From assembly GCF_018143015.1 (NCBI RefSeq), contig NC_054741.1, forward strand, positions 72,036,687 through 72,100,686: a stretch of 64,000 bases of DNA, read 5' to 3'. A program made the position numbers and the translations under genes. The stretch comes from Lytechinus variegatus (Eukaryota). The notes under the pieces were generated by a model. It worked only from the letters and a program-made list of their open reading frames with translations, searched no databases and was not told the origin of the DNA. This document shows positions 5,540 to 27,799 of the stretch, piece by piece. The first letter of the stretch is position 1; every line of letters begins with the position of its first letter.

Positions 5540-5570
5540 CTAGCAGAATTCTTCGCTGCCTGACAATTCG
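5540..5570 (-). CDS. Terminal exon of the coiled-coil protein (SELSGSEEFC, then TAG stop)
   Basis: Acceptor tatttttcag. Phase is carried from the previous exon. The in-frame TAG is at 5542-5540. Confidence 0.55.
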
Positions 5571-5912
5571 CTGAAAAATACATGGAAGAAAAAAGAAGAA
5601 AATTAGTAGAAATACAGCCAGTAAGTTTAAACAAGGTGAAATAAGTCAAGTGTGATGTCCTAATCAGCCTACATTGAATTATAATCTATGTATGGTATAA
5701 TCACATAGACTGATATTTTGACTGTCAATTACACTTTAAGTACATTTCATGCCACACTGTATAGATGATTAATGAAAAGGCTTTGAATTGAGGAAACACG
5801 TAACATATTGTTTGGCACTCCAAACAAACCAGTTGTTTGCAAACCATGTGTAACATTTTAAAGTGGCCCCAGATTTGATGTGCTGTAAGTTTATTATTTC
5901 ATTGACACCTAC

Positions 5913-6049
5913 CTTCCTTCAAAGTCCTGTTCTAGATGTTCTAATAGCTCTGGAGCTCTCTCTAACATGAGGGTATAGAGTTGGTCTAAATACTGTTTCT
6001 GCCTCCCTGCTTCCTCTAACTCATCTTGAAGCACATGAAGTATCTCATC
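5913..6049 (-). CDS. Coiled-coil protein exon (DEILHVLQDELEEAGRQKQYLDQLYTLMLERAPELLEHLEQDFEG)
   Basis: Acceptor tttgatag and donor GGAAG|GTAGGT. Confidence 0.7.
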
Positions 6050-6627
6050 CTATCAAAGATAAATACACACACATATCATATCAGATTTATTTACATGTGT
6101 ACCGCAAGCAAAATATAATATAATAAAATATAACATTTGAGGTATATCTAAATTTCTCTTTAACTATTTATATCTATTTAAATATCTATATACATGTATA
6201 TATCTAAAATAAAAGTTAAGAAACAGCAGTATGTTGTTCTTTTCTTTACTTTGTGTGTTTTATTTCAACTTCAACTGATTGAGGAACATTTTCATACCTT
6301 TTTGAAAAAAAAAATCTATACTGGTTTTTCCATCCATCCATCAATCAACCATCTATCATTTGATGATTTGATTAATTCTTCTTTTTTTCATCCAAATTTA
6401 CAACCATTCATTTATTGATTCATCAGCATTTACTTGTGATTATTAATTGATATTCATTAACATATTCATTCATCATCTAATTCTATTTATTTTTGTCAGT
6501 AGATTCATTTCCCATCTACGTTATAGTTGTTCATTTTTTTTTGTATTTACTCTATCTAGTAATTATCTTATTAATTGCATACTTTATGTCAATAGACATG
6601 GGCTTTACAACCGTTAAGCGTGCTCAC

Positions 6628-6786
6628 CTTATTGGCAGGCTTAAGAACTTCCCATAGTGGTGCATCATTATTAGCACTGGCAATAAGGTCATCTGCCTTT
6701 ACCTCTTCATTCCGATTGAGGTCAATAGACTTTAGCCTACTCAGGGCATCATCACGCTCCTTCACTATAGATGAGGTCTCTGAGTT
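6628..6786 (-). CDS. Coiled-coil protein exon (NSETSSIVKERDDALSRLKSIDLNRNEEVKADDLIASANNDAPLWEVLKPANK)
   Basis: Acceptor accatag and donor AAG|GTGAGC. The plus-strand ORF 6620-6925 is its antisense artefact. Confidence 0.7.
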
Positions 6787-6957
6787 CTATGGTACAAAGA
6801 ATACAGATTACAGAAAACTTCTTTTTATTGATACCACACATGTACAGAAGCATTCCCCCTATAGTCAACATATTTTCAAATACATGGTGTATATGACATA
6901 TTTCTTTGAAGCAATAATATCATAAATGAATCTAAAATATTCATTCAAATATATTAC

Positions 6958-7017
6958 CTTCTGTGCTAATTCAGCTTCCAGCTTTTTAAGCTTCTGTTCC
7001 TGTTGTCGTACCCTTGT
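6958..7017 (-). CDS. Coiled-coil protein exon (TRVRQQEQKLKKLEAELAQK)
   Basis: Acceptor tatacag and donor AAG|GTAATA. 20 codons. Confidence 0.65.
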
Positions 7018-7589
7018 CTGTATAAGTTAAATGAAAAGGTATATAAGTTTTGTGGAAATGGGTGAAAGTAGGTCAATACCTATTTCAAGAGAAATATTAT
7101 TGATATATCATTTGGTGATATACTTTATATTTGGATTCAAATAAGGTATTTTGCTTTCCTTATACTGACCAAGACAAGTCTGTCATGAGATTATATGATA
7201 AATAAGTTATTCATCAAATTAACAGCAAAGAATCATTCTCAAAGAGTTTTGTTAGATGCACAGGTCAGATATTTTTATAGTTAGAATTTAAAGAGAGGGA
7301 GAAAGATGAGAGGAGGATTATCATCACCTTTAACTATTGGGACTTTGCATAAAATATGCGAACCTGACCCCCTCATGTATGACCTTTCTGAAATGATTTC
7401 TCTGTTTTCTAGTTCATTTGAAAGTTTGCAATATTATCAAATTATCATGGCTTGAGCATGAAGTAAAATAAGACAAGAGAGGATGGATGGACAAAAACAG
7501 TCGATTATTTTCAGGAATAGCCTAATCACAATCAAGCAATCATAACTGAAATGATACAAGAATGTAAACAAAAAAAGACTAACACTTAC

Positions 7590-7712
7590 CTCTAATCTTT
7601 CCTTGTCGCCCTGCAATCGACTGATAGCATGATTTGATTGGTTGATGTTCCCTTCATGGGCCATACGCAACTCCTCTGATATTTCTTGATTCCTAGACTC
7701 TAATGTCTCAAT
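7590..7712 (-). CDS. Coiled-coil protein exon (IETLESRNQEISEELRMAHEGNINQSNHAISRLQGDKERLE)
   Basis: Its frame is anchored by ORF-track entry 7437-7670. Acceptor tgtatag and donor GAG|GTAAGT. Confidence 0.75.
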
Positions 7713-8032
7713 CTATACAATTCAAAACAAATATTAAGAGATACATTACAGACAAACTCGGGGAATCATAGATTGATATTGCAATTGAAATTTGAGAGTC
7801 TGTATTGAAACAGACATTTTATATAAAATGGCTTGTACTGAACCTAATTAAAGTGATAGGAGCGGTTGAAGACTTCTTTCATGCAATCCACAAACCGGTC
7901 ATTCAATATGATAAAATTATTATGATATATACAATAATAACATTTACAGCAGAGAATATCATTACATACATTTCATCTGAATTCTTGCATTCATTGATCA
8001 TGATTCTATATATGAACTAAAAACATTGTTAC

Positions 8033-8105
8033 CTTGTGGTGAAGTTGTTGCATTGTGACTTTCTGCTGATTAAGTTCCAGGACCTGATGCTCTAGAGGTC
8101 TCAAT
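8033..8105 (-). CDS. Coiled-coil protein exon (RLRPLEHQVLELNQQKVTMQQLHHK)
   Basis: Acceptor cttttag and donor AAG|GTAACA. Phase matches its neighbours. Confidence 0.65.
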
Positions 8106-8262
8106 CTAAAAGAACGCAACAGAATAATCAACTATTGATGGTTTGAGGTCAGTATACATGTATGCTTTTATGGTAAGATTTAGAAAATCATAGCAAACAT
8201 AAGGACATCGTTATTACAACCATTCTCTCCACTCCTTCCTCTAAAAAAACAAAAGCAAACTT

Positions 8263-8854
8263 AAAGGAGAATGAAACCATTGGAACAAGATAGCTTGTGT
8301 AAAAACAGAAAAATCAAAGAAACAGATCAACGAAAGTTTGAGAAAAATCGGACAAATAATGAGAAAGTTATGAGCATTTGAATATTGCGATTTCTAATGC
8401 TATAGAGATAGCAAATTGGCAATGCGACAAAGATGTGTGATGTCACTTGTGAACAACTCTCCCCATTACTTTAGTATATATTTCACTTGAATTGCCTCTT
8501 TTATCACATCTATCCATAGATCATGTGTTCTTTCTACATGAGGGCATGTAATACATATTTTTTTAGGAATACATCATGGATAAAGAGTTTGTATCATCAT
8601 AAGAAAAAGCAAAAAGAGACATTTTTTAGGGTATTTTATAGTCCACCAAAGGGAAAGTTGTTCATCAGTGACATCACACATCCTTGTCGCATTGCCAATG
8701 GGAGGACCTCCATAGCATTAGTGATTGCAATATTCAAATGCTCATAACTTTCTCATTATTTGTCAGATTTTTCTCAAACTTTCTTTATTCTTATTCTTTG
8801 ATTTTTCTGTTTCTACACAAGCCTATTTGTTCCAAAGGTTTCATTCCCCTTTAA
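8263..8854. mobile_element. Foldback MITE family 2, copy 1 (~590 bp, ~190-bp inverted arms), in an intron of the coiled-coil gene
   Basis: The arm 8263-8460 is the reverse complement of 8640-8854 (gacatcacacatccttgtcgcattgccaa...). ORF-track entry 8523-8747 is an artefact. Confidence 0.75.
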
Positions 8855-9060
8855 CTACCACCAGCTCCTCCTCCTCATCATTAAAATCATCATCACCACA
8901 CTACCACAAATATTATGATCAATGGCATTATAACCCCCACCACCACCACCACCAGCATCAACAGCAACATCTTCATCATGACCATTCTCCATCTTCACCA
9001 TCATTACTATGGTCACTACTACCACCATCAACAGCACCTCAGCTATCACAATCAAATCCT
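8840..9060. repeat. Imperfect (CAY)n / (CCA)n trinucleotide-rich low-complexity tract
   Basis: Read directly. It generates the spurious poly-His/Gln ORF 8725-9114. Confidence 0.7.
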
Positions 9061-9094
9061 ACTGCTTATTCCTTTCTCCTCTCTATTACCTTAC

Positions 9095-9313
9095 CTATGA
9101 ACTATATCTGTTAACCTCTTATTCTCCTGCCAGCATGACTCATAGTGTTCTGAAGCGGTGGCTAGTTGTCTGGTCAGTCTGTCCACCTCCATGCTAACCT
9201 GATCCCGTCCAGCCCGCATGCATACCAGCTGGGCTTTCTTGGACCGGTTCAACAAGGTGTTGACCTCTAAGACACTTGACCCCAACGTGCTGTGACCATT
9301 GACCTCTATGACT
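9095..9313 (-). CDS. Coiled-coil protein exon (RVIEVNGHSTLGSSVLEVNTLLNRSKKAQLVCMRAGRDQVSMEVDRLTRQLATASEHYESCWQENKRLTDIVH)
   Basis: Its frame is anchored by ORF-track entry 9091-9324. Acceptor ttgtacaacag and donor CATAG|GTAAGG. Confidence 0.75.
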
Positions 9314-9731
9314 CTGTTGTACAAGATTGTAAGGATAAAATTAAATTGCTAACTGAAAAAGGATCCTCATTCTACTCTAAATATAGCAATACCATTGTGT
9401 TGCAGTGATGGTTTTCATATTATGTATAAACATGTTCAGGCGATCATACTGGCAATTATCTTACAAATCATATTATCTTTTTTTATAAGACAGGTCTTGA
9501 TAATTGATCCATTTTTACATTGACATAAATAATATAAATTAAATAAATTAAATAGAATAAATTAATATAAAATTACAAAAACATAATTTTGAAGGAATTT
9601 TTAATAAAATGTGCAAATCAATGGCAATCTCAACAGAAAATTTCCAATATTAATATTACAAAATATTTCTGTAGCTCGAGGTGATTATATCAGAGACATT
9701 GTGACAAGTTTTATGAAAGTGGTATACTCAC

Positions 9732-9943
9732 CTATCACCGACACGCAGCACATCTGCAGAGCGACAGCTCTGTATGTAGACTCCGCTCTGAGAGTTTTTT
9801 TCAGCCACCTGAAAATGAAAACCCTGTGAGCTTGCACTAGCCAGTAGAGCAAACACTGAAAACTGCTGGTTATGAGGCAAAGTGTTGTAGAAGTTGAGAG
9901 CACCGCGGGGTGAGATGGCAGCCTTCTTCTTGGCTTCCTCGAT
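9732..9943 (-). CDS. Exon IEEAKKKAAISPRGALNFYNTLPHNQQFSVFALLASASSQGFHFQVAEKNSQSGVYIQSCRSADVLRVGD (a non-coiled segment)
   Basis: Acceptor cttttag and donor GATAG|GTGAGT. A 70-codon open frame with consistent phase. Confidence 0.7.
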
Positions 9944-10212
9944 CTAAAAGTCAAAAGTAAAAAAAAAAATGTAAAAGTGCTGTTAATGATCTGCCTTGTG
10001 AATGTACTCAATAAAATCCTTATACACTAGTGGCTTCTGTCTGCCATAAACAATTTTTGACAGTCAGGTACAACTCTATGATATTTTCAATATGTAGACT
10101 TAAATCTTGTAAAAAAAAATATTCAAGTCCTTGCCATTCCTTTATTTTATAAAGCATGCAGTGGTACATGAAAGTGGAATTCTTGAATATTATGAAATAA
10201 GAACAATTTCCT

Positions 10213-10840
10213 TGATTACTCTAATGTCCAAGTTTAATGAACTAGACCAATAAACTTTCAAAGTTATGATGGTAATTCAACAGATACCCCCGATTCGGCC
10301 AAAGTTCATTGACCCTAAATGACCTTTGACCTTAATCAAGAGACCTGAAACTTGCACAAAATTTTCAGTGATGCTTGATTACTATTATGTCCAAGTTTCA
10401 TGAATCAGATCCATAAACTTTCAAAGTTATGATGGGAATTCAACAGATATCCCCAATTCGGCCAAAGTTCATTGACCCTAAATGACCTTTGACCTTGGTC
10501 ATGTGACGTGAAACTCATGCAGGATGTTCAGTGATACTTGATTAACCTTATGTCCAAGATTCATGAACTAGGTCCATATATTTTCTTAGTTATGATGACA
10601 TTTCAAAAACTTAACCTCAGGTTAAGATTTCGATGTTGATTCCTCCAACATGGTCTAAGTTCATTGACCCTAAATGACCTTTGACCTTGGTCATGTGACA
10701 TGAAACTCTAATAGGATGTTTAGTAATACTTGATTAACCTTACAGCCAAGTTTTATTAACTAGGTCCATATACTTTCTAAGTTATGACGTCATTTCAAAA
10801 ACTTAACCTCAGGTTAAGATTTGATGTTGACGCCACCGCC
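10213..10840. repeat. Tandem array of ~3.7 copies of a 162-190-bp unit (cttgattaMcYtatgtccaag...ttcattgaccctaaatgacctttgacctt...) in an intron of the coiled-coil gene
   Basis: Unit starts near 10213, 10375, 10538 and 10728 share more than 85% identity by eye. Confidence 0.75.
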
Positions 10841-11004
10841 GTCGGAAAAGCGGCGCCTATAGTCTCACTCTGCTTCGCAGGTGAGACAAAAATGATACCA
10901 AATTTGACATTATGAATGATAGCAGGAAATGGAAGAGTTCATTATGCAGCAGTTGTCAATTAAATTCACTTCAGAATTAAAATTGCTCATCATCTTTAGG
11001 GTAC

Positions 11005-11128
11005 CTTTGCAGCTTGAAGTTGGTAGTCAGCAATAGCAATCTCCATGTTAGCTAGGAGTGTACTGTGATCATATTGTGCCTTTAGGAGAGCTACCTCGGC
11101 TAGAGTCACTTCATACATAGATGACGTG
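11005..11128 (-). CDS. Coiled-coil protein exon (STSSMYEVTLAEVALLKAQYDHSTLLANMEIAIADYQLQAAK)
   Basis: Its frame is anchored by ORF-track entry 10996-11193. Acceptor tttttttctatag and donor AAG|GTACCC. Confidence 0.75.
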
Positions 11129-11698
11129 CTATAGAAAAAAATACACATTGAGAACAACTGTGACATTATGTTCATGAGCATTTCTTCATGCATGGATTCA
11201 TGTTTTACTATTATATAGGAAGCTCTTTATTTCTCTTCCATGGTATAGAATCTTCTAATTAGGAAAAAATTAGCTTTCCTCTGTGTTAGGAGTGAAGATT
11301 TGAAGATTCCATAACATGGGCTAACAAATTTGCTCCAAAATACCAGAGAGTGCATATTCCTTCACATTTTAAACATCTCAAAGTTTCATGGCAGTTAGGG
11401 TAGCATGCTAATTCATAATTTCACACGTTATAAGAATTTCAGAGGTGCTACATATCTCCTCAGCCCTAGAATTGATAGATTGCAGGCAACATAATGTTTT
11501 TAAAGTATAATTTATAAAAATATAAAGAATTTTATCTTGCAAACTGGTCAAAGAAATTTCAAGGCACAAGTTTTGTTGTGTGAATATGCAATATGTACGA
11601 GAATTGCGTTGGAGAAATTTAACAATGTGATTGTGTTAAACTACTTAAACTTAAATTGGGATCTATTATTGATTGCTAATAAAATTGCAGGTCCATAC

Positions 11699-11831
11699 CT
11701 GTCATCCATGCTTGCTCCTAACTCTTCAACACTTTGTTTGATCTCATCAAGGTCTCTCTGTCTGTCTTCCATTTCTTGACTGGCTGATTCCAGTTCTGCT
11801 AATAACTCAAGAAGTCTCTCTGGAAGAGATT
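11699..11831 (-). CDS. Coiled-coil protein exon (ESLPERLLELLAELESASQEMEDRQRDLDEIKQSVEELGASMDD)
   Basis: Its frame is anchored by ORF-track entry 11641-11865. Acceptor ttttttcctccccaag and donor GACAG|GTATGG. Confidence 0.75.
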
Positions 11832-12668
11832 CTTGGGGAGGAAAAAAGAAAGAGATAACATGCACTACTGTTTTCTGGTTTCATTTTTCTTTTTATTCTT
11901 TTTGTAGCTATATTTCTTTTCATTTCATCTTCTCTTCTTTATATTGCTCCCTCAGAAGATAAACCTACATGTATACACAAGATAATTCAGTGATTACTAT
12001 ACACATAATCTACTCTATTACATTACCGTCTACACACTATTTATATAATGCACTCCAAAATTCTAAATTCTATCATCATTTAAACGTAATGGAACATAAA
12101 AAGCATACACATCTCATGTGCTAGTGTTTTAGTAAGGCATTTATCCCCATAACCCTCTAAGAGGACCTTAAGCTATTGGTCCCCTGGTTGCTTACCTCTA
12201 CACACAACCACAATTTTTTGATAAAAAGTAGCACATAAGAAATATTAGTTTGAAATTTATTAGTTCCCATTCCAGTGTACCAATAAAACTATTGAAAACA
12301 GCACAATTCAGACTGATAAATTCTGTGAAAGTAAAAACATTCAGTATTCTTTTTATAGTACAGTTCTCACAACATTGAAATTAAAATTCACCCCTTATAT
12401 CAGTGAAATGAAACTATGAAACCTGACTGACATGTTGCATTTCCTCATTATTAAATAAGGGTTCTGTTTCATAAAACTTCTTACAATAACAAATTTGGAA
12501 TAGCAGTTTAAAGCTACTGAAATCATTCAATTTGATTGGCTGATAGAAGACTTGTTAGAAATTGTGCATTTTTATTATCACAGTCTTTATGAAACGGAAC
12601 CCAGATTTGTCATGAGAGAAAAAATTCTGACCCTACTCAGCGATAAATGCTGACAATGGGAATCTTAC

Positions 12669-12780
12669 CTGTTTCAGGACATGATGCTAGTCTTTGTTCC
12701 AGTGTTTGTAATCTAGCATCTACATTCATCTGATGGTATGAGTTCCCAAGATCAGCTAGAGCCTCTTGTAATGCAGCCAG
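12669..12780 (-). CDS. Coiled-coil protein exon (LAALQEALADLGNSYHQMNVDARLQTLEQRLASCPET)
   Basis: Acceptor tatacag and donor ACAG|GTAAGA. Confidence 0.7.
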
Positions 12781-13479
12781 CTGTATAGTAACATACATAA
12801 AAATAAAAAAGGCAATACATTAGCATGCACAAATATGTCCTAAAGACAGGATCTTAACATGGGAATGACATTTTTGTTTATGATAAAAAAGCCAACTATA
12901 TTGCTGCTTTTTCTGCATTGTAATTTATGTGAGAATATGTTAAAAATATGAGCTTAAGACAGATAGGGATATTCACTTTTTATAATGTTATAATACCAAG
13001 TTGCTGCTTTCTTATGGCAAAACACTTTAGTATAAGAATAGGAATTTGGAAAATCATCAATCATTGAACACATTATCTTTTCTTAAATTTTCCTTTTTAA
13101 ACCATGGCAAATATTTACACTGTATTTATTTCTCATTTCTAACATTCTAGAATGTGTTCCAGAATATAAATAATTTCCTATGTCTATGTACATGGCTAGA
13201 ATAGAAACTGTCACAAATTCATCATTTCTCTAAAAGATTATTCGGCTTTTTATGCTAGCATCTCTCTTTTATTCAGAAGCATCTCTCTTTTATTCAGAAG
13301 GATGCCGTCAGCCTAGTTACTGGGCCTGAAAAACCGGTTAAAGCCCCATATATTCAGTACAAAATAGAGCCTGAACTGGAAGTAGCCAGAGCCTGAAATC
13401 ATGCAAAAGCCTGACTGGCATCTCTATATACATTGTTCAAATTAAACAAAAAAAGTCAAATAAAAAACTGCCAGCTCAC

Positions 13480-13551
13480 CTGTCTACTTTTTTCTTCTAG
13501 TTCTCTAGAAATATCTTTCTCACTGGAGTTGTCTTCTTCTACATCATTAAT
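13480..13551 (-). CDS. Coiled-coil protein exon (INDVEEDNSSEKDISRELEEKSRQ)
   Basis: Acceptor cccctcag and donor CAG|GTGAGC. Phase 0 in and out. Confidence 0.65.
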
Positions 13552-14911: not shown

Positions 14912-15025
14912 ATGTATTTCTGGAATAGGACTGATGTCCTTTACTTTGACTTGGGTTGGGGCTGGAGCTGCACTTGGTGTTGAGGTATCTTTACCTGGTA
15001 CTAAAGACTCCTCAATACTGGCCAT
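14912..15025 (-). CDS. Exon MASIEESLVPGKDTSTPSAAPAPTQVKVKDISPIPEIH; it could be the first coding exon of a separate coiled-coil gene or an internal exon
   Basis: The ATG at 15025 is preceded by a tttttgatag acceptor-like motif. Donor CAT|GTGAGT. Confidence 0.55.
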
Positions 15026-17147: not shown

Positions 17148-17769
17148 AAGACTCTTTAAAGAAAACATCAATTAATAACCTGCACATAATAGTGAAGTAG
17201 AAAAAGTAATTCATAGTTATTTCATTGGTTGATAAATTAACATTTATAAAAGCTGCAAAGGAACAATTAAACATGTGTTAGTATTTGGTAGGAATGGTAG
17301 GAATTGTGCATGAGCATCATTATTCAGAATGTCATGTCAATTTTTACAAATCACACGAACTGTATACATGTATGCAACATTAGCAGATTCACTAAGGGAA
17401 GGACCTAGGGGCCCCAGTCCAAATCCCCCGGAAGATGTTCTGCCAATGTATTTTACAACAAGCAACAAGCAATGAAGATCATTTGAATACATAATGCAAT
17501 GTATTAAAGGTTAGTAAATGTAAATGAAAGGGTATTATATAATACACTATTATTATATACTATTATTAAAGGCACCTATCGCAAGAACAGCCACAAAGCA
17601 AACCCAGCCTGCATTTTTATTGAAGGAGGAAGGAGTGAAGAATGAAGCACCATGATATATGCACAGAAATTAATCATGGATAATTTATTTTTCAGAATAT
17701 AATGTATTATATAAGTGGTTGGATCATCATGAATATTGATTATTGATTGATACATATTCACGAGCATAC

Positions 17770-17856
17770 CTCCTTTTCAAGTTTGGACAATTTTTCATTG
17801 TCGATACGTGATGAGCAAAGAACTTCAGAAGACCCGTAAGAAGACCCCAAGCTTAT
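17770..17856 (-). CDS. Candidate small exon ISLGSSYGSSEVLCSSRIDNEKLSKLEKE, linking the RA exons to the coiled-coil exons
   Basis: A clean 87-nt open frame with donor GAG|GTATGC and a weaker acceptor ctaacag. Phase 0 on both sides is compatible with its neighbours. Confidence 0.4.
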
Positions 17857-19305
17857 CTGTTAGAATCAAACCATCATAGTATTTAATAACCAACTCATCC
17901 CTACCACCATATTACATCATTCAACTCTAAAGGGATCAGATATCAAATAATACTTATTATCTGTGCATGTCGAAAAAGCTTAAGTATGTCTGTTGATAAG
18001 CATATTTTACGAACTAATAACAATATAAAGGGAACATGAAGTTGGTTCACAAGGGGTCAAATGTAATTTCAAGTCCTGTGTAATTTTGATTTAAATCCCA
18101 AAGAGGGCAAGATCTCATCAATGTGGTTGTGTGTTACCGTATATGTACGTATTTTTAAATAGGACCTTGAGCGAACTGCACTCATTGTGAAACGGCTCTC
18201 AGCCACTGATCAATCTAGTGTCTCTTTTAGAAGACCAATACCTCAGCCACATTTGCTCTACGGCAGCCATACGGTGAGTCAAAAACGGCCGTTTTAACAT
18301 TTTGTTGTTGTTGCACCAGCTACATACACTAGCAAGTGGTTTGAATAAAAACAAATAAAATGGCTGTTTTCGATTCGCCATACGGCCGCCGTAGGGGAAA
18401 TGTGACTGCAGTATTAATGTCATTTAGCAATGAAAAAAAAACCTCAAATATTTATCTGATGACTGATCCCCTCTTGCACAAGAGAGCAAACATACAAACA
18501 AATATTTAAAAAAAAATCATCTCCCCAAAACACTCCTTTTTCACAGCAGAGGCAACACTCGGTCAATTCTCTTCAGCATTGTCCACATATACATGTTTGA
18601 GAAAAATACCATAAAAGTACTCATGACTTGCCTTAGGACGATAAAACTTCAACATACACATGCAGGGGAGAGATAATGGCTAAAAGGTCAATAAAGTTCT
18701 GAGACATTGATATGTACAAGAGATGTACCATAAATCAATCTTATTACACAGTGGAACAATAAATCACAACATCAACCTGTTATCTCACAAAAAAAACAAG
18801 ATTAATATGCAAAATGAGAGAACACTGCATCAAAAGAGAAAGAACATGTAGAAAATTAAACAAATATAACAGGGGCTTGAAAGAGTATGCAATCTTGCAA
18901 ATTAAAAACACAGCAGTTGGTAAAATAAAACTGCTTCAAAATGATAGTACAAGCCTGCCCTAAATCATATACTATTACATGTAGTATTCATATTGCATCT
19001 TCTCTAATCACTTTCAAACTTGAGAATAAAATCAGCTTCACAAGGAAGACAAATTAAATGATAGGATAAATGATAGTGTAGAATTGAAAGCCATTACTCT
19101 ATTGATCCTTGGCTGAACTTAATAAAACATATACATGCATGCGTACATTTTATAGTGCACGTCTTAAAATGATTAGACCTTGATAGGACTTGAAACAATT
19201 ACTGAAGACAATTTTTATTGCATTTATCAAAATGAAATCATATACAAAAGCAAAGATGCAAGGTCATTAGAACAGGCAAAGATGGCCACGAGGAAGAGTA
19301 CTTAC

Positions 19306-19490
19306 AGCGGACATCTTGGAGCTAGCTCTTGACGTGAGAGAGTCCTGACGCTTGACCTTACGATCGCCAGCATTGGCTTCTTCTTCTTCCTGGGTTGTCC
19401 AATGAAGATCCCTGTTGCTACGGTCACACAACACAAAGGCATGTGAGTCAAGCTGAAGAGGGAGTGCTTCATCGTCCACATCACATACAT
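19306..19490 (-). CDS. RA domain 2, second half plus linker (DVCDVDDEALPLQLDSHAFVLCDRSNRDLHWTTQEEEEANAGDRKVKRQDSLTSRASSKMSA)
   Basis: Acceptor ctccttag and donor GCT|GTAAGT. It matches the afadin RA2 tail (ILDDDECPLQIF...). Confidence 0.75.
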
Positions 19491-19864
19491 CTAAGGAGGC
19501 GAACCAACAATGTAAACACAATTTATCATCTTTATCATTTTGAGTCACCACATAACACTTTCTCTATGTTTAGCATGTGTAAGAGCCAGTTATGTTATAT
19601 TAGCCACTGCCAGGTCCCTCTTGATACAGGGTCAGTCACGCTACCTGGTGATCTTCTGTACTCTGTAATTTCATTTTTTTAATGTGAGCTCAATACAGTG
19701 ATATCAAATCTAATCAAATCAAGAAAACTGAAACAAGATTCTATACCTCCTGTTTTATTTTCATTATTATCTTTGGACAATCTCAAATCATTTTAATTAC
19801 TTGTTGATATCGTGGTTATTATATGTGATTGAAAACTAACTAAAAAAACATAAAAAATATATAC

Positions 19865-20024
19865 CTCCATCCTTGTCCACTTCAAGAAGACAAAAGAGAG
19901 TTGGGTCAACATTCTTCATGTCAAACTTCTTGAGAGCCAAGATGACCACTTCAATGGCTGGAGTGGACAGAGATATACTGACCAGCTTGCCCTTAGGTGG
20001 CTGACCAGGGATTCTAAGGACGGT
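19865..20024 (-). CDS. RA domain 2, first half (TVLRIPGQPPKGKLVSISLSTPAIEVVILALKKFDMKNVDPTLFCLLEVDKDG)
   Basis: Acceptor cttttcag and donor GGAG|GTATAT. It aligns with afadin RA2 (TLRIYADSLKPNIPYKTILLSTTDPADFAVAEALEKYGLEKENPKDYCIARV). Confidence 0.75.
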
Positions 20025-20629
20025 CTGAAAAGAGTGAAACATAAAATAGGATAATTACAATCACTCAAATTCAAAGAAAATATTTTCAATGTTAGCAAAC
20101 TACAACATGTTGCAAGCTCCGTAATATTACATGAATAATTGGTATCAATATTATGACTTAGCCACCTTGCCAAAATCAGAGCTGCGTCTTTCCCACAGGA
20201 AATCAGCAAGTGGCTTTTCATTAGCAATTTTCACATGTCCTCATAGACAAAAAAGGGAATGGAGGAAAGCGGTATCATATGACATACAGCTCCACTATAC
20301 GGAACAGACTTTTGACAACGGGCCTATATTGGTAAATACTCTTAATCATAGAGAGTTAAACATGCCACAACACTAATAAACACATTGTAAGCAAAATCAG
20401 AGTTGGTTATAATAGGTCAAGGAAAAATAGTTTTCACAATAATTACTTCAGATATTAATTCTCTATTATAAGCAATAAAGTGGCAAATCCATTAACTCTG
20501 CACATTCCTCATTAACTTTGATTGAAACATGAAAGGCATACATTACAACTGGCACTAATCAATACCAAAATTACTGTATCTTAATGAACTTTCATCATAA
20601 TAATGGTAATGTATGAGGTTAAAGCTCAC

Positions 20630-20748
20630 CTTTATAGCACCACCTTGTGCAGTCTTCTGCCTGAACTCAAACCTATTGCTAGAGTGATCACTCCAACCAT
20701 GCTGAATAACAAGTGGGCAATCCATAGGCACAAGCTCTACATCATTAC
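20630..20748 (-). CDS. RA domain 1, second half (GNDVELVPMDCPLVIQHGWSDHSSNRFEFRQKTAQGGAIK)
   Basis: Acceptor tgtgcag and donor AAG|GTGAGC. It matches the afadin RA1 tail (LDIDEKPLVVQLNWNKDDREGRFVLKNE). Confidence 0.75.
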
Positions 20749-21184
20749 CTGCACATGGGGACATAAGAAAGTTAGGAATTTATTATTATTATTATTCTAC
20801 TACTCAGGAATATAAGTATTACATTATTTTTTTTTAATTACAGCTGGGTATTGTGTGCACCTGAAGTTGAGCTAATTTGACACCTAGAACCAACTCGGCT
20901 GATCCTGATTCAAATTTGAGTCACATTTTTAAGCGTGTGATCTACAAGATCAACTTTGAACTTGATTGATAGGCATCTGATATGCAATATAAAAACCTGA
21001 TTTTATCAACAAGCCAATCGGTGTTGCTGGAATGTTCTGATCAGGCAAAGATTAGGAGGGGCAACCAAGTGAGTGTAAACAATGGATTGACCCATAAAAA
21101 CTTTGTCTGAGAATGTTATGGTGCCATTGACAATATTAGCATCTTTCGGGAAAAGCAAGTCAGCAGTGTCTGCATACACCTTAC

Positions 21185-21331
21185 CCTTGTCTTTGCCATG
21201 AATTGTAGCCTGTAGTACCCTGTAGAGTCTTGGGTCCTCAATCAGATCCAGCTGATTTAAACATAAATTGATTAAATCTTGAGTTGTTGATTCCTCTGTC
21301 AGTTTCACTACCAGAGTCTTTGATCCACTCC
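21185..21331 (-). CDS. Afadin/canoe-type Ras-association domain 1, first half (SGSKTLVVKLTEESTTQDLINLCLNQLDLIEDPRLYRVLQATIHGKDK)
   Basis: Acceptor ttatag and donor AAGG|GTAAGG. The ORF-track frame anchors it. It aligns with afadin RA1 (KCIRVSSTATTQDVIETLAEKF...YSLYEVHVSGE). Confidence 0.75.
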
Positions 21332-21676
21332 CTATAATTATTTAGATGAAAAAAATAGATGTATATTATCCTTTTTTCCAAAACAGTTTCATGATCTATG
21401 ATTATGTGAGTATAAATGAACATTGATGACAACTCAATGTTCATTAGAAATTAATAACATATATACACAGTGGTTCATTGAAAATCAATAACATACATCA
21501 TTGACATTCTATATGTTACATGTATCTATATATTTCAGCGTACTTTTTCTCAAAAGGAAGTAATAAATTATTATATTACATGACCTATATAGATACTTAT
21601 GCGCGATTGGTCAGCACACCGTCACGTGACCATCCTAACAAGGATGATTATCGGTATCTTTCCCAACATGACGTAA

Positions 21677-21760
21677 AATATGTCATACCTCGGAATATAA
21701 CGCTGTGATTACGTCATACCTCGTGATATAACGCCGTTATATTCCGAGGTATGACTTCAC
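21677..21760. repeat. Perfect 21-bp inverted repeat (gtcatacctcggaatataacg ... cgttatattccgaggtatgac) with a ~27-bp spacer. It lies within a motif-rich segment (CCAAT/gattgg, CACGTG, TGACGTAA, TTACGTCA) about 70 bp upstream of the Crypton-like ATG.
   Basis: Reverse-complement identity was checked by eye. The tcatacctcg core occurs three times. Confidence 0.7.
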
Positions 21761-21823
21761 ATGAGCACATTTGGGCTGCATTCGCGCAGCGCGAAATTGG
21801 AAGAAACAAATTTTTTTGTCAAA

Positions 21824-23149
21824 ATGACTGCTTCAGCGAGTCGATTCACATCGCTTGGTGAGGAACAATTGGAGGAAATAATTGATTAAAAAGATGCCCG
21901 TTCAACTAAAAGGGTTATTACTTTGGCGGAGAATGTTCTCAAAGCTTACTGTGAACACAAAGGATTGACAATTCAGGAAACAATCACATCAGCTGAGCTG
22001 AGCAATATTCTTCGATCGTTTTATGCGGAGGTGCGTAGATCAAACGGTGAACTGTACAGTAAACGTTCGATGATAACGCTATGATATGGACTGCAGAGAC
22101 ATTTCAGCAAACTTGGTTTCAACGTCGTGAATGACCCGGAATTCAAAGAAGCAAATGACATGTTTCATGCTGTTCTTGTAAAGCTGAAGAAGGCAGGAAA
22201 AGGATCTGTTGATCACAAGGAACCGATCACAAAAGATGATTTTTTGAAAATTAAATCATCTTCAGCAACTGATGTGAACACACCGAGAGGACTTCAAAAC
22301 AAAGTTTTCATGGACATTATGATGCAGCTGTGCAATCGTGGGAGAGAAAACTTGCAGAATTTTTCTCAGAAAGATTTTGTCGTTGTAAAGGATTCTACAA
22401 ATGAGAAATATGTCTACCTCGCCACTGATAAATTAACAAAAAATCACCGTGGAGAATCTCTGGATGACTCCCGCAGTCAACAAGGAAGGATGTATCAAAC
22501 TCATAAACCGGACTGTCCCATTGAAACTTTTGAACTGTATATTTCTCATCTAAATCCTGTATGTGATTTTTTTCAGCGTCCGAAGATAAGTGTAGAAAAA
22601 AATCAATAAGTGTGGTACTATAATTCCCCCGCAGGCAAGAATACTTTGGGTGATAAAATGAAGAAAATATCACTTGAAGCCAACACATCAAAGGTGTACA
22701 CAAATCACTGCTTACGCGCAACGTCAATCCACGTCCTGGATGCTGGTGGATTTGAAGCGAGACACATCATGCCCGTATCCGGACACAAGTCGGAAAGTAG
22801 TATCAAACACTACTCTTATGTTGATGAAGCTAAAAAAAGATGCATGAGCAGATGCCTTTCATCTATGGGTGATGGAACAGCTGGTCCATCGACACAGACG
22901 AGGCCTACAGCACTGTCCACTTCTCGCATTCATCCTAGTACTGCTACTACAAGTACTAGGCCTACTAGTCCAGGACCAGAACAAAATCCTACAGCTCTCG
23001 TGCCAGCAGCAAACACCGAAGATGCATCGTCACAAAGTTCACAGTCCCAGTCTTCACCTCAAATAAATGTTGTCTCGAACAAATTAGCCTTGGACAAGAA
23101 GCGGCAGTACAATTTCTACAATTGTACGGTCAATTTTTACAACTAACAT
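21824..23149 (+). pseudogene. Crypton-type tyrosine-recombinase gene (KIAA1958/ZMYM-like architecture: N-terminal EEQLEEIID..NTKR..F.AY..H domain plus a C-terminal YR catalytic domain with H-x-x-R and GHKS...KHYSY). It is one ~440-codon frame interrupted by three in-frame stops (TAA near 21887, TGA 22082, TAA 22607) with no frameshift.
   Basis: The ORF-track pieces 22127-22609 and 22610-23146 are in the same frame. The upstream segments MTASASRFTSLGEEQLEEIID*KDARSTKRVITLAENVLKAYCEHKGLTIQE...SKRSMITL*YGLQRHFSKLGF share that frame. The conserved motifs WYYNSPAGKNTLG, TNHCLRATSIHVLDAGG and IMPVSGHKSESSIKHYSYV match the tyrosine-recombinase box II pattern. Confidence 0.75.
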
Positions 23150-23585
23150 TTGACTATAGATCTATACAGCAGCATCTCGATAGAGACTAGACTTATTCAA
23201 CATTGTGTTTACATTTAAAGCGTTGGAATTCGGAAAAATATCATATCCCTCGACAAAAATATAACTCCCCTCAAGGATCTCAAATGTTATATTTCCCCTC
23301 TAGGCAGTCAATATCTGTATGATATTATAGAAGAATTTTTAACATGAAATTTACCTATTGAATATCAAACCTGTAATGATAATGCAATGTTAATTTGGAA
23401 TATCATGGAAGAAATCAAACATACCTAAACAGAGCTCACAATAAGACGAAACCAAGTGAACCATACCCAGTTCTTAGAAAGAGAAAACATCTAGATATAT
23501 AATCATTCTGCGATATGCTGAATATATATGTGTATTGCAGAAATCAAAGACAAATCATCATCAATGTAAGATACAAAATGGATAC

Positions 23586-23683
23586 CTGTTTGTCCGACAT
23601 CTGTCCATACATGAATAGTGTTGCTATCTCTTGGACTCTTCTTCCAATTTGATGGGGAGATCACTTCTTTCAGCTTGAAGAGT
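23586..23683 (-). CDS. Exon (G)LFKLKEVISPSNWKKSPRDSNTIHVWTDVGQT
   Basis: Acceptor ttgttcatgtag and donor ACAG|GTATCC. Phase continues from the acidic exon and into the RA1 exon. Confidence 0.55.
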
Positions 23684-24025
23684 CTACATGAACAAGAATC
23701 ATACACATTCAGAAATAGCCTTTTCTTTCAATAGTGAGATTTTGTCTCAAAAATTTGATGGATTAATAAAGCATCTCTTCAGTGAAGAAAAACAGGTAAA
23801 AGATACATTAAATTCAACAAACTTCATATCTATAGATTTTCTAAAATGGTTAAATGGTTGATAAAGGATTCTTCTCTTTCCTCTACTTCTTTTGTGTCCA
23901 TCATCTACCAGTAAACGCTGTTTACAGCATGTGTCTTTGGAATTGGAAGCTACTATAATAACGCAATGGTGAAAAATCTAGAGACTTTCATAACATATTG
24001 ACATGATGAAGATCTGTATTCTTAC

Positions 24026-25064
24026 CCTCCTTTTTTCTTCTTTTCTTCTTTTTCACTCCCAGAACTTCTACTGCTCTCACTTCTTGTTGGCTTCACATCT
24101 CCTCGCCTGGGACTTTCCTCCTCTACTGGTATCTCAGTCTCAACCTTCCTTCCCTTTGTGGAATCCTTTTTGGCCCCATGCTCAGTCCCATCTACTGAAA
24201 CATTTGCTGGGATCACTGCACCTAGAGAATCACTGGAAGTTGTTCTAGACAAGTCTTTCTTGTCAACAGAGGTTTTTCTTGTCACAGGTTCTTTGGAGGA
24301 GCCTTTCAAGATATTGTCCTTCTCAACAGAACCTTGTTTTAGCACCTTGGCACTATTGGCAGTATTTTTGGAAGCATTATTTTCAACAGATTTCACATTT
24401 CCTGAGATATTATTAACTATCATGGCTGATTTCAGAGCTTCATTGCTCTGTTTTTTATTCATAAACTTAACCTCTTCTTCATCATCATTGTCAAAGTCAA
24501 AGTCGCTAGCTTCTGATTCTTTGCTGTCCTTATCAGCAGTCTTACTAGAGGGTATATTTTTCTCTGCATCTTTACTTGCTTGGTTTGCAGCAAGTTTGGC
24601 TTTCCTTTCAGTTTCTTTGATTTCTGCCAGAAGTTCCACAACTTCTTCTTCTTCCTCATCATCTTCATCGTCCCAATCACCATCAGAATCATCTGTTTCA
24701 TCATCAGCAGCATCCATCGTTCCTGTGACCTTCTTCTTATCAATCTTCTTCTCTGTATCATCTTCATCATCCCAATCGCCATCGGAATCATCTGTTTCAT
24801 CATCAGAGGCGTCCATCTTTCCAGCAACCTTCTTATCAACCTTCTCCTCTGTATCCTCTTCATCATCCCAATCATCATCGTCATCCCATTCATCCTTCAT
24901 TCGCTTGTTCTCTTCTCTGCTGTCATTCTTCTCAGGACTAGATAGTAGACTGTCGCGTTCTTCTGGTGGTAAGAGCTGGATGTCTTCAGGGTCATCTGAT
25001 TGTAACACACTTACCGCTGCCATGTATTTCTGTTTCTCATAGCCGCTGGTATGGCTGATAACAC
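24026..25064 (-). CDS. Large exon (about 345 codons) encoding a Ser/Asp/Glu-rich acidic region with tandem ~31-aa repeats (KKVAGKMDASDDETDDSDGDWDDEDDTEKKIDKK, twice) and multiple WDD motifs; C-terminal part EKEEKKKKGG
   Basis: The ORF track has a 391-aa open frame. Acceptor tttttaccag at 25064 and donor GG|GTAAGA at 24026. The nucleotide-level repeat is visible at 24640-24900. The plus-strand Ser-rich ORF 24158-25042 is its antisense artefact. Confidence 0.7.
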
Positions 25065-25353
25065 CTGGTAAAAAAGAATATGTAGAATTGTGTTTTGATA
25101 ATTGGTAGGAAAGTTTTAATGACATTTTCTCCAGTGGTAATATGCTCCAATAGAAAATCTGCACATGAAGACAAATATGATAACTGATCTCAAACATGCA
25201 TCTTAGTCCTCATATTTGTTCTGAATAAAAACCCTATCACAAACTATAAACCTTAGCTCAAAGTATTCTATATTAATTGAAATTCGAATATATCCATTAA
25301 ACCAACAGAGTCCCTGTAGTAGCCACAAAGCACTGTTATCATTGGAAACTTAC

Positions 25354-25455
25354 TCAAAACATCATCTCTTGCAGTAGTAGAAGATGGGTTGGTCAATTCG
25401 TAGAGAGTAGATAAGATTTTCTCTCTTTCTATTGAGGAATCTATATCCATTTCAT
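25354..25455 (-). CDS. Exon (D)EMDIDSSIEREKILSTLYELTNPSSTTARDDVL upstream of the acidic exon; the ATG of EMDID (aaATGG context) could be the initiator
   Basis: Acceptor ctccttacag and donor GTAAGT. Phase is compatible with the next exon. Confidence 0.5.
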
Positions 25456-27748: not shown

Positions 27749-27799
27749 CCAGCAAGGACATATCAATTTCCATTAGCTCTTTTCCAGAAATGTCATGAT
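27749..27799 (-). CDS. SAM domain 2 continuation (DHDISGKELMEIDMSLL); the remaining 3' exons were not resolved
   Basis: Acceptor ctttcag and donor CTGG|GTGAGT. It parallels the SAM1 exon structure (G.DIDG..L..L...DL). Confidence 0.6.

What the first reader, a model, noticed from the sequence alone, without database searches (positions are those of the whole stretch)
5540..25455. Possible single ~20 kb gene: acidic repeat region, two afadin-type RA domains, then a long coiled-coil with no FHA/DIL/PDZ
All hand-mapped minus-strand exons from 25455 down to the TAG at 5540 have mutually compatible splice phases, including the three inter-block junctions 23586->21331, 19306->17856 and 17770->15025. 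Random exons would match all three junctions only about 1 time in 27. The two RA domains align specifically with afadin/canoe RA1 and RA2. Canonical afadin then continues with FHA, DIL and PDZ domains, which I do not see here. Instead about 520 codons of coiled-coil follow. Upstream there is a 345-codon acidic exon with DDETDDSDGDWDDEDD tandem repeats. This is either a novel RA-coiled-coil architecture or two or three tightly packed same-strand genes (an acidic protein, an N-terminal afadin fragment, and a coiled-coil protein starting at MASIEE 15025).
Basis: partly seen in the sequence, partly recalled or inferred. Interest (0 to 1): 0.6.

Follow-up and report, generated by a model that had tools for sequence, protein, structure and literature searches.

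The report
One sea-urchin SAM–RA–PDZ scaffold gene

Summary
The hand-mapped exons and all three disputed junctions are real. They are part of a larger minus-strand gene: 27 coding exons, ATG 39733 to TAG 5540, 1,614 codons, all introns GT-AG.

The model is collinear with Strongylocentrotus purpuratus RefSeq LOC589102 (85% identity). It also aligns end to end with single proteins from a sea star, a brittle star, crinoids, a hemichordate and amphioxus. A sea-cucumber protein aligns too, but lacks part of the C-terminal coiled coil. The one-gene reading is therefore right, and "MASIEE" is internal.

The architecture is richer than reported:
- two SAM domains upstream of 25455
- an urchin-specific acidic insert with a 99-nt tandem repeat
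- two RA domains, whose only solved relatives are afadin, Radil, Rasip1 and Grb7
- coiled coil, then a genuine PDZ domain (exons 9943-9732 and 9313-9095), then coiled coil
- a probable Rab11-FIP-type Rab-binding helix and an invariant C-terminal EEFC

No FHA or DIL domain is present, so it is not afadin. Its central coiled-coil/PDZ module is homologous to arthropod proteins that NCBI names "sprt" (hhalign 99.8%). No functional study of the family turned up.

Most likely it is an oligomeric scaffold linking Ras/Rap-type GTPases to Rab-dependent trafficking or PDZ ligands. That function is inferred, not shown. It is a solid gene model of modest novelty.

The parts
39076..39733 (-). Coding exon 1. 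ATG at 39733 (MFGWKKKKK...), then a basic/Ser-Pro-rich N-terminus and the first half of SAM domain 1 (...DWSEAEILQWLNDSDLEYFADIFQG).
   Evidence: Open frame and donor TCCAAG|gtatgt. The N-terminus MFG-KKKKK is shared with orthologues. 82% identical to S. purpuratus LOC589102.
35215..35265 (-). Coding exon 2, SAM1 continued (CDIDGDYISQVTEEDL).
   Evidence: 94% identity.
34309..34403 (-). Coding exon 3, end of SAM1 (IDLEVEEGSLREQLL...).
30038..30386 (-). Coding exon 4, acidic/Ser-rich linker between the two SAM domains.
   Evidence: tblastn to S. purpuratus P0008, 78% identity.
29114..29248 (-). Coding exon 5, start of SAM2 (VSQWTERDIIHWLDSINLGHLAQNFI).
   Evidence: Pfam SAM_2 E 2.6e-22 at residues 404-463.
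27749..27799 (-). Coding exon 6, SAM2 continued (DHDISGKELMEIDMSLL).
25354..25455 (-). Coding exon 7, end of SAM2 (DEMDIDSSIEREKILSTLYELTNP...).
   Evidence: Acceptor ttacag|AT and donor TGA|gtaagt. Aligns to the SAM2 C-terminus of all orthologues.
24026..25064 (-). Coding exon 8 (about 346 codons). It holds the conserved SGYEKQKYMAAVSVLQS motif, an urchin-specific acidic/disordered insert of about 330 residues, and the conserved EEKKKKGG.
   Evidence: The insert is absent from non-urchin orthologues. 71% identity to S. purpuratus, with a gap of one 33-residue repeat unit.
24658..24880 (-). Tandem repeat inside exon 8: 99-nt unit (33 codons, ...MDA-DDETDDSDGDWDDEDD...), 2.3 copies, 85% matches.
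   Evidence: Tandem Repeats Finder.
23586..23683 (-). Coding exon 9, conserved LFKLKEVISP motif and the first strand of RA1 (TIHVWTDVGQTG).
   Evidence: 97% identity to S. purpuratus.
21185..21331 (-). Coding exon 10, core of RA1.
   Evidence: Pfam RA.
20630..20748 (-). Coding exon 11, end of RA1 and the RA1-RA2 junction (...FEFRQKTAQGGAIK).
   Evidence: Pfam RA.
19865..20024 (-). Coding exon 12, RA2 first half (PKGKLVSISLSTP...FCLLEVDKDG).
   Evidence: Pfam RA. Afadin RA2 (1wxa) aligns to this segment.
19306..19490 (-). Coding exon 13, RA2 second half and a Ser-rich linker.
17770..17856 (-). Coding exon 14 (29 codons, phase 0/0): ISLGSS...RIDNEKLSKLEKE. A cassette exon that is skipped in annotated isoforms of other species.
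   Evidence: Present in S. purpuratus isoform X1 and absent from X2. The same segment is absent from Anneissia isoform X2.
14912..15025 (-). Coding exon 15, starting MASIEESL. This is an internal, conserved motif, not a translation start of a separate gene.
   Evidence: Acceptor ttgatag|ATG. Motif conserved in orthologues and arthropod relatives.
13480..13551 (-). Coding exon 16, coiled-coil region 1.
   Evidence: Long helices in the AF2 model of the Patiria orthologue.
12669..12780 (-). Coding exon 17, coiled-coil region 1.
11699..11831 (-). Coding exon 18, coiled-coil region 1 (ESLPERLLELLAELE...).
11005..11128 (-). Coding exon 19, coiled-coil region 1 (conserved AELEYK-ALEES-LVAL-type segment).
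9732..9943 (-). Coding exon 20, PDZ domain first half, including the GFHF carboxylate-loop equivalent and ...GVYIQSC...LRVGD.
   Evidence: Pfam PDZ, sub-threshold. Family profile against PDB PDZ domains, E down to 2e-10. AF2 and Foldseek PDZ fold for the family.
9095..9313 (-). Coding exon 21, PDZ second half (RVIEVNGHST...AQLVCMR) and the start of coiled-coil region 2.
   Evidence: As for exon 20.
8033..8105 (-). Coding exon 22, coiled-coil region 2.
7590..7712 (-). Coding exon 23, coiled-coil region 2.
   Evidence: 95% identity.
6958..7017 (-). Coding exon 24, coiled-coil region 2.
6628..6786 (-). Coding exon 25, end of coiled-coil 2 and the conserved PLWEVLK motif.
5913..6049 (-). Coding exon 26, the most conserved segment: DEILHVLQDELEEAGRQKQYLDQLYTLMLERAPELLEHLEQDFEG. 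This is the FIP-RBD-like helix.
   Evidence: 100% identical to S. purpuratus. Pfam RBD-FIP 14.7 bits against a cut-off of 23.3. The top four PDB hits are Rab11-FIP3 RBD. Mollusc homologue P0065 passes the Pfam cut-off.
5540..5570 (-). Coding exon 27, SELSGSEEFC followed by the stop codon TAG (5542-5540).
   Evidence: EEFC is invariant in all 7 aligned proteins.

Best explanation
The region 5540-25455 is the 3' two-thirds of a single minus-strand protein-coding gene of a sea urchin. The gene has 27 coding exons from ATG 39733 to TAG 5540 and encodes 1,614 residues. It is the orthologue of S. purpuratus LOC589102.

Domain order of the product:
1. basic N-terminus
2. SAM1, acidic linker, SAM2
3. 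an urchin-specific acidic, repeat-bearing disordered insert
4. tandem afadin/Radil-type RA1-RA2
5. a conserved KLSKLEKE-MASIEESL motif, half of it in a cassette exon
6. coiled coil, PDZ, coiled coil
7. a FIP-RBD-like helix and an invariant C-terminal EEFC

Shown here: the gene structure, the orthology, and the SAM, RA and PDZ domain identities.

Inferred from the known roles of these domain families: the protein is a multivalent cytoplasmic scaffold.
- It would self-associate through the SAM domains and coiled coils.
- It would be recruited by GTP-bound Ras/Rap-type GTPases through the RA pair.
- It would bind C-terminal peptide ligands through the PDZ domain.
- It would possibly engage a Rab11-type GTPase through the C-terminal helix.

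Together this would couple Ras/Rap signalling at membranes or junctions to vesicle trafficking or cortical organisation.
For: Gene structure:
- A continuous 4,845-nt CDS with 26 GT-AG introns.
- Every exon is 71-100% identical to XP_030847644.1, with 85% identity over 1,577 aligned residues.
- End-to-end alignment with single proteins of Patiria, Amphiura, Antedon, Anneissia and Ptychodera. The Apostichopus protein aligns too but lacks part of the C-terminal coiled coil.
- Branchiostoma has the same SAMx2-RAx2-PDZ order. Lingula has SAMx2-RAx2 by Pfam and a PDZ-like segment seen by eye in its C-terminal sequence.

Domains:
- Pfam SAM_2 E 2.6e-22 and RA E 2.2e-14 for the window protein; SAM and RA are found in 7 of 7 orthologues.
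- The PDZ family profile hits 190 distinct PDB sequences at E<=1e-3, the best single-domain hit being NHERF2 at 2e-10.
- The AF2 model of the family PDZ has pLDDT 88.9. The 50 top Foldseek PDB matches listed are PDZ-domain entries, with query TM-scores of 0.64-0.81.
- The RA profile hits only afadin RA2 (5e-5), Radil (1e-4), afadin RA1 (7e-3), Rasip1 and Grb7 in the PDB.
- C-terminal helix: the top four PDB hits are Rab11-FIP3 RBD. Five of the six C-terminal peptides scanned (the window's and five orthologues') give full-length sub-threshold Pfam RBD-FIP matches. The C-terminal profile retrieves proteins that pass the RBD-FIP cut-off. The Pinctada homologue passes it at the equivalent position.
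- The AF2 model of the Patiria RA-to-C-terminus shows two beta-grasp domains and long helices.
Against: - No transcript data for the source species could be examined, so exon use and transcript ends are inferred from homology.
- The window's own PDZ (18 bits against a cut-off of 23.2) and FIP-RBD (14.7 against 23.3) segments are below Pfam thresholds as single sequences.
- The PDZ region was poorly modelled in the long Patiria model (pLDDT below 50).
- The FIP-RBD assignment rests on marginal E-values (0.02-0.3).
- No binding partner, localisation or phenotype is known for any full-length member. All functional statements are extrapolated from domain families.
- Shorter annotated isoforms exist (Branchiostoma X2, 937 aa), so internal promoters cannot be excluded.
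Confidence: 0.85

Rival explanations
1. Two or three tightly packed same-strand genes: an acidic protein, an RA-RA 'afadin fragment', and a coiled-coil protein starting at MASIEE (15025).
For: An older S. purpuratus annotation covered this gene with three partial, overlapping models: XP_011673031 (935 aa), XP_011673032 'glutamic acid-rich protein-like' (680 aa) and XP_011673033 (803 aa). Exon 15 happens to begin with ATG. Shorter relatives lacking the RA part exist in molluscs and arthropods.
Against: The blocks are contiguous in single proteins of echinoderms from five classes, a hemichordate, amphioxus and, for most of the domains, a brachiopod. The current S. purpuratus RefSeq model merges them. 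The Met of MASIEE lies inside a conserved motif that spans the exon 14/15 junction. There are no in-frame stops, and all junctions keep phase. The old 680-aa model has RA2 sequence placed before SAM2, which suggests an assembly or annotation artefact.
Confidence: 0.05
2. A divergent afadin/canoe paralogue that has lost FHA and DIL. On this view it works like afadin, linking Rap1 to adherens junctions and actin.
For: A tandem RA1-RA2 followed later by a PDZ matches the afadin order. Afadin, Radil and Rasip1 account for four of the five solved structures hit by the RA profile; the fifth is Grb7.
Against: No FHA or DIL match in 7 of 7 orthologues. Two N-terminal SAM domains, long coiled coils flanking the PDZ and the FIP-RBD-like/EEFC C-terminus are not afadin features. 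In the exhaustive profile search, the RA-only hits I looked up were SAM-RA-RA proteins of cnidarians, a Capsaspora RA-ArfGAP-ankyrin protein and unnamed metagenome proteins. None was named afadin. The central module is homologous to arthropod sprt proteins instead.
Confidence: 0.07
3. A decaying or non-functional locus: a pseudogene or a chance chain of ORF fragments.
For: The introns carry transposon debris: a Crypton-like ORF and foldback elements. The acidic insert is fast-evolving (71% identity, copy-number change).
Against: A 1,614-codon frame with no stop and all introns GT-AG. Conservation is graded by domain, reaching 100% in the last two exons and 90-97% in several RA, SAM2 and PDZ exons. 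This is the pattern of purifying selection.
Confidence: 0.02

Closest known systems
Strongylocentrotus purpuratus LOC589102 'uncharacterized protein' (XP_030847644.1 isoform X1, 1,588 aa; XP_030847646.1 isoform X2, 1,559 aa), with its counterparts in Patiria, Amphiura, Antedon, Anneissia, Apostichopus, Ptychodera and Branchiostoma
   Same: Collinear over all 27 exons at 85% identity. Same SAM-SAM-RA-RA-coiled coil-PDZ-coiled coil-EEFC order. The exon skipped in isoform X2 is window exon 14.
   Different: The window protein has one extra 33-residue copy of the acidic repeat, and its sequence differs throughout by about 15%, so it probably comes from a different species. The roughly 330-residue acidic insert is confined to the urchins.
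Arthropod proteins that NCBI names 'sprt' (gene symbol of Drosophila sprite, CG30023), e.g. Cloeon dipterum XP_065347113 and Cherax XP_053633109
   Same: The central module is homologous: MASIE motif, coiled coil (AELEY-L-EE-L), PDZ (GDRLLEVNG) and the following coiled coil. hhalign gives 99.8% probability, E 1e-29, over 332 columns. The C-terminus ends in aromatic-Cys (QWC/NWC against EEFC).
   Different: No SAM, RA or FIP-RBD was found in the arthropod proteins examined: Pfam for two of them, sequence read by eye for two others. They are about 650-750 aa. I did not compare with the D. melanogaster sprt sequence itself. The only functional statement found is that sprt is listed among 'genes required for cell motility' (PMC12355558).
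Afadin / Canoe (and Radil, Rasip1)
   Same: A tandem RA pair whose nearest solved relatives are afadin RA1, afadin RA2 and the Radil RA domain, with a PDZ domain further downstream.
   Different: No FHA and no DIL. Two SAM domains lie upstream. The PDZ is embedded in long coiled coils, and the C-terminus is different.
Rab11 family-interacting proteins (FIP-RBD, Pfam PF09457)
   Same: A C-terminal amphipathic helix reading ..RQKQYLDQLYTLMLERAPELLE.. aligns over the whole RBD with FIP3 (..RLQDYIDRIIVAIMETNPSILE..). It follows a coiled coil, as in the FIPs.
   Different: Below the Pfam cut-off in the window protein. No C2 or EF-hand domains. YLD replaces the YID of the FIP3 sequence in the alignment. 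About 17 further residues follow the helix, ending in EEFC.
Mollusc SAM-PDZ-coiled coil-FIP-RBD proteins (Pinctada KAK3084309, Octopus XP_052826614, Patella, Mya, Saccostrea) and cnidarian SAM-RA-RA proteins (Nematostella LOC5513712, Pocillopora XP_027058251)
   Same: Each carries a subset of the modules in the same order. The mollusc proteins end in EEFC or EQWC, and one has an above-threshold FIP-RBD.
   Different: The molluscs lack the RA pair. The cnidarian proteins gave no PDZ match, and their match to the profile was confined to the RA region. All are unnamed predictions.

Membership tests
Afadin/Canoe family | Two N-terminal RA domains in tandem | tested here: met
   Pfam RA, two stretches, E 2e-14. 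The PDB profile search hits afadin RA2, Radil and afadin RA1.
Afadin/Canoe family | FHA domain after the RA pair | tested here: not met
   No FHA match at E<=1 in the 25455-to-TAG part of the window model, nor at E<=0.1 in the full model or six orthologues. The model is collinear with the RefSeq orthologue, so no exon is missing.
Afadin/Canoe family | DIL (dilute) domain | tested here: not met
   No DIL match.
Afadin/Canoe family | PDZ domain | tested here: met
   A PDZ is present, but it is flanked by coiled coils rather than following a DIL domain.
Afadin/Canoe family | C-terminal proline-rich / F-actin-binding region | not tested
   No model of that region was available. The C-terminus here is a coiled coil plus a FIP-RBD-like helix.
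LOC589102-type SAM-RA-PDZ scaffold (unnamed orthologous group of invertebrate deuterostomes) | Full-length collinear alignment with members | tested here: met
   85% identity over 1,577 residues to S. purpuratus; 34-39% to Patiria, Ptychodera and Branchiostoma over 1,200-1,270 aligned residues.
LOC589102-type SAM-RA-PDZ scaffold (unnamed orthologous group of invertebrate deuterostomes) | Domain order SAM-SAM-RA-RA-coiled coil-PDZ-coiled coil | tested here: met
   Pfam on the window protein and six orthologues, and on P0019 and P0020.
LOC589102-type SAM-RA-PDZ scaffold (unnamed orthologous group of invertebrate deuterostomes) | Invariant C-terminal block PLWE-LK...RQK-YLD-LY--ML--AP-LL...EEFC | tested here: met
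   Invariant columns in alignments A1 and A3.
sprt (sprite)-like coiled-coil/PDZ proteins of arthropods | MASIE motif - coiled coil - PDZ - coiled coil module | tested here: met
   hhalign 99.8%, E 1.2e-29, 332 columns.
sprt (sprite)-like coiled-coil/PDZ proteins of arthropods | Orthology to D. melanogaster sprt itself | not tested
   Only proteins that NCBI labels 'sprt' in Cloeon and Cherax, plus unnamed insect homologues, were compared.
Rab11-FIP (FIP-RBD) proteins | C-terminal FIP-RBD (Pfam PF09457) above threshold | tested here: inconclusive
   Window protein 14.7 bits against a cut-off of 23.3. Five of six C-terminal peptides scanned score 11-15 bits over the whole model. The top PDB hits are FIP3 RBD, E 0.1-0.3. 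Homologue P0065 scores 23.7 bits, which passes.
Rab11-FIP (FIP-RBD) proteins | N-terminal C2 (class I) or EF-hand (class II) domains | tested here: not met
   No such Pfam matches.
Rab11-FIP (FIP-RBD) proteins | Binding of GTP-Rab11 | not testable with these tools
   Needs a biochemical assay.

The most novel reading that the evidence does not exclude
The gene represents an ancient bilaterian scaffold family that has never been studied functionally. On this reading:
- the full form (SAM-SAM-RA-RA-coiled coil-PDZ-coiled coil-FIP-RBD-EEFC) is kept in echinoderms, hemichordates, amphioxus and brachiopods;
- it is reduced to the coiled-coil/PDZ core in arthropods (sprite) and to SAM-PDZ-RBD in molluscs;
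- no vertebrate was found among the hits I could name;
- it physically bridges Ras/Rap-GTP (RA pair) and Rab11-type recycling vesicles (C-terminal helix);
- the invariant C-terminal (F/W)-Cys acts as a regulatory tail, for example an intramolecular PDZ ligand or a lipidation site.
Probability: 0.3. Interest if true: 0.5.

Novelty: new member of a known kind. Interest (0 to 1): 0.3.

Why it matters
For the genome scan, this settles an annotation question. The locus is one 34-kb gene, not three. An earlier S. purpuratus annotation made exactly that split, so the corrected domain map is useful.

Biologically, the family is conserved from brachiopods to amphioxus, with partial forms in cnidarians, molluscs and arthropods. 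It combines two kinds of small-GTPase-binding module (RA and FIP-RBD-like) with SAM and PDZ modules. Every member I could name is labelled uncharacterized, hypothetical or with a generic name. If the Ras/Rap-to-Rab bridging idea held, it would be a new effector class, and sea-urchin embryos would be a tractable system to test it in. As it stands, it is a well-supported but ordinary gene of unknown function.

Tried and rejected
- Crude read-through concatenation of the PDZ exons gave no Pfam PDZ hit. Only the properly spliced sequence did.
- The profile search with the 79-residue C-terminal block returned only short metagenomic fragments and no named proteins. Its use was limited to linking the block to FIP-RBD.
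I reran it with orthologue segments only.
- The AF2 model of the 792-residue Patiria RA-to-C-terminus had low overall confidence (pLDDT 61.6) and did not resolve the PDZ. A dedicated PDZ alignment was needed.
- Literature searches for the domain combination, LOC589102, CG30023 and sprt/sprite found no functional study. The only hits were a table entry mapping sprt to PARD3B and a statement that sprt is a cell-motility gene.
- I considered and rejected an extra exon at 14867-14619 (LEVNDGSVPSRPDEWPYEY...). It is absent from every orthologue and its splice phases do not fit.
- The flanks (1-5,500 and 40,000-64,000) show no long ORFs and were not pursued.
- The source species could not be identified, because no eukaryotic nucleotide collection was available.

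Full report
**What the window is.** The sequence is AT-rich (about 35% G+C) and carries short, intron-separated open frames on the minus strand, so it is eukaryotic. Translated pieces are 82-90% identical to Strongylocentrotus purpuratus proteins. The window therefore comes from a sea urchin closely related to, but probably not identical with, S. purpuratus.

**Checking the observation.**
- I listed all stop-free minus-strand stretches and scored candidate donors and acceptors.
- Twenty-one exons from 25455 to the TAG at 5542-5540 join in one frame with GT-AG introns.
- The acidic exon is 25064-24026 (1,039 nt). Tandem Repeats Finder reports a 99-nt unit in 2.3 copies at 24658-24880.
- Pfam finds two RA domains (E 9e-15 on the spliced product).
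- Pfam finds no FHA or DIL, but it does find weak PDZ matches at residues encoded by 9943-9095.

**One gene or several.**
- A search with the RA-to-C-terminus product returned single proteins of 1,264-1,378 aa from Patiria, Amphiura, Antedon, Anneissia and Ptychodera that cover 99-100% of the query. Two Apostichopus models cover 68%. All of them also carry SAM domains.
- tblastn of these proteins on the window placed SAM-encoding exons well upstream of 25455, at about 39.2, 35.2, 30.3, 29.2 and 27.8 kb.
- I located the remaining exons and the start codon, MFGWKKKKK at 39733. The assembled model has 27 exons and 1,614 codons with no internal stop.
- It aligns end to end with the orthologues. 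The Met of 'MASIEE' falls inside a motif, KLSKLExE|MAxIExSL, that is conserved in the echinoderm orthologues and spans the exon 14/15 junction.
- The exhaustive profile search and cluster look-ups then showed that the current S. purpuratus RefSeq has one gene, LOC589102, with isoforms of 1,588 and 1,559 aa. An older annotation covered the same gene with three partial, overlapping models of 935, 680 and 803 aa.
- My model is 85% identical to isoform X1, and all 27 exons are represented.
- Isoform X2 lacks exactly the 29 residues of window exon 14. The same segment is missing from the Anneissia isoform X2. Exon 14 is thus an annotated cassette exon in an urchin and a crinoid.
- The single-gene reading is therefore strongly supported.

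**Domains.**
- SAM and RA. Scanning the window protein and six orthologues gave SAM (two copies) and RA (two copies) in all seven.
- PDZ. Sub-threshold PDZ matches appear in five to six of the seven.
  - A profile of the whole family hits solved PDZ domains at E about 2e-6.
  - A 26-sequence profile of the PDZ segment alone hits 190 distinct PDB sequences at E<=1e-3, with NHERF2 at 2e-10.
  - An AF2 model of that segment has pLDDT 88.9. The 50 top Foldseek PDB matches listed are PDZ-domain entries, with query TM-scores of 0.64-0.81.
  - The GLGF-loop equivalent is GFHF in the window protein (read from the sequence).
  - The 'no PDZ' statement is therefore wrong.
- RA subtype. The RA1-RA2 profile finds only five solved relatives: afadin RA2, Radil, afadin RA1, Rasip1 and Grb7. 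This gives modest support to 'afadin-type'.
- C-terminal block. The last 80 residues are the most conserved part of the protein (100% identical to S. purpuratus in exons 26-27).
  - Their profile's four best PDB hits are all the Rab11-FIP3 Rab-binding domain, but at marginal E-values of 0.1-0.3.
  - Five of the six C-terminal peptides scanned (the window's and five orthologues') give full-length Pfam RBD-FIP matches of 11-15 bits.
  - The profile retrieves two fragments that pass the RBD-FIP cut-off.
  - The Pinctada homologue passes it at the equivalent C-terminal position.
  - I regard a FIP-RBD-like helix as probable, not proven.
- Overall fold. An AF2 model of the Patiria RA-to-C-terminus, at low overall confidence, shows two beta-grasp domains, three long helices, a poorly resolved PDZ region, two more long helices and a terminal helix.

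**Distribution and relatives.**
- Full-length architecture also occurs in Branchiostoma. Lingula has SAMx2-RAx2 by Pfam and a PDZ-like segment that I saw by eye in its C-terminal sequence. Ciona keeps RAx2 and PDZ.
- A Tubulanus (nemertean) protein keeps one SAM, the PDZ and a match to the C-terminal part of the profile, with no RA match. Molluscs have short SAM-PDZ-coiled coil-RBD proteins ending in EEFC or EQWC. Cnidarians have SAM-RA-RA proteins.
- Arthropod proteins of 650-750 aa, some labelled 'sprt' by NCBI, match the central module. hhalign between the deuterostome profile and ten arthropod sequences gives 99.8% probability and E 1e-29 over 332 columns. The aligned region covers the MASIE motif, the coiled coil, the PDZ and the next coiled coil.
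- No vertebrate protein appeared among the hits I could name.
- The roughly 330-residue acidic, repeat-bearing insert is confined to the urchins. It differs by one repeat unit from S. purpuratus.

**Function.**
- Nothing functional is published for the full-length family in the library searched.
- For sprt I found only a list entry and a statement that it is a cell-motility gene (PMC5730423, PMC12355558).
- From established knowledge of the domain families: SAM domains and coiled coils mediate oligomerisation, RA domains bind GTP-loaded Ras/Rap proteins, PDZ domains bind C-terminal peptides, and FIP-RBD helices bind Rab11-class GTPases as parallel dimers.
- On that basis the most likely role is a multivalent scaffold that links Ras/Rap signalling to membrane trafficking or cortical organisation. 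This is inference only.

**Verdict.** The single-gene interpretation is right. The boundaries and the 'no PDZ' claim are wrong. The architecture is already present in public annotations as uncharacterized proteins. The locus is a new member of a known but unstudied kind, and interest is modest (0.3).

Noticed in passing
window 22127-23146 (+ strand), inside intron 9 of the minus-strand gene: An ORF of about 339 codons broken by one stop at 22607-22609. The merged translation passes the Pfam DUF3504 cut-off (35.6 bits against 29.7) and weakly matches Phage_integrase. This looks like a decayed Crypton-like tyrosine-recombinase element.
   Followed up: partly
window 8258-8857 (intron 21) and 42548-43146 (upstream of the gene): Two copies (about 87-98% similar over the aligned pieces) of a roughly 600-bp element with internal inverted arms of about 205 nt. 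It resembles a foldback or MITE-like transposon.
   Followed up: no
window 10283-10822 (intron 19): A tandem array of three units, each about 163-192 nt, at 75-86% identity.
   Followed up: no
window 17770-17856 (exon 14): This 29-codon, phase-0/0 exon is skipped in S. purpuratus isoform X2, and the same segment is absent from an Anneissia isoform. Skipping removes half of the conserved KLSKLEKE-MASIEESL motif, which suggests conserved alternative splicing.
   Followed up: partly
window 5540-5570 (exon 27) and homologues P0052, P0032, P0065, P0082: The protein ends in EEFC in all seven aligned deuterostome proteins and in the one bivalve homologue whose sequence I read. It ends in QWC or NWC in the octopus homologue and two arthropod sprt proteins. 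This conserved aromatic-Cys C-terminus has no explanation yet.
   Followed up: no
protein P0008 (S. purpuratus XP_011673032.1, old annotation): This 680-aa model places RA2 and MASIE sequence in front of SAM2 and the acidic exon, which is the reverse of the genomic order seen here. It probably reflects a mis-assembly or mis-annotation in the older S. purpuratus release.
   Followed up: no
window 45582-45757 and 58251-58426: A pair of 176-nt inverted repeats, 97% complementary and 12.5 kb apart, upstream of the gene. Probably two copies of a dispersed repeat.
   Followed up: no
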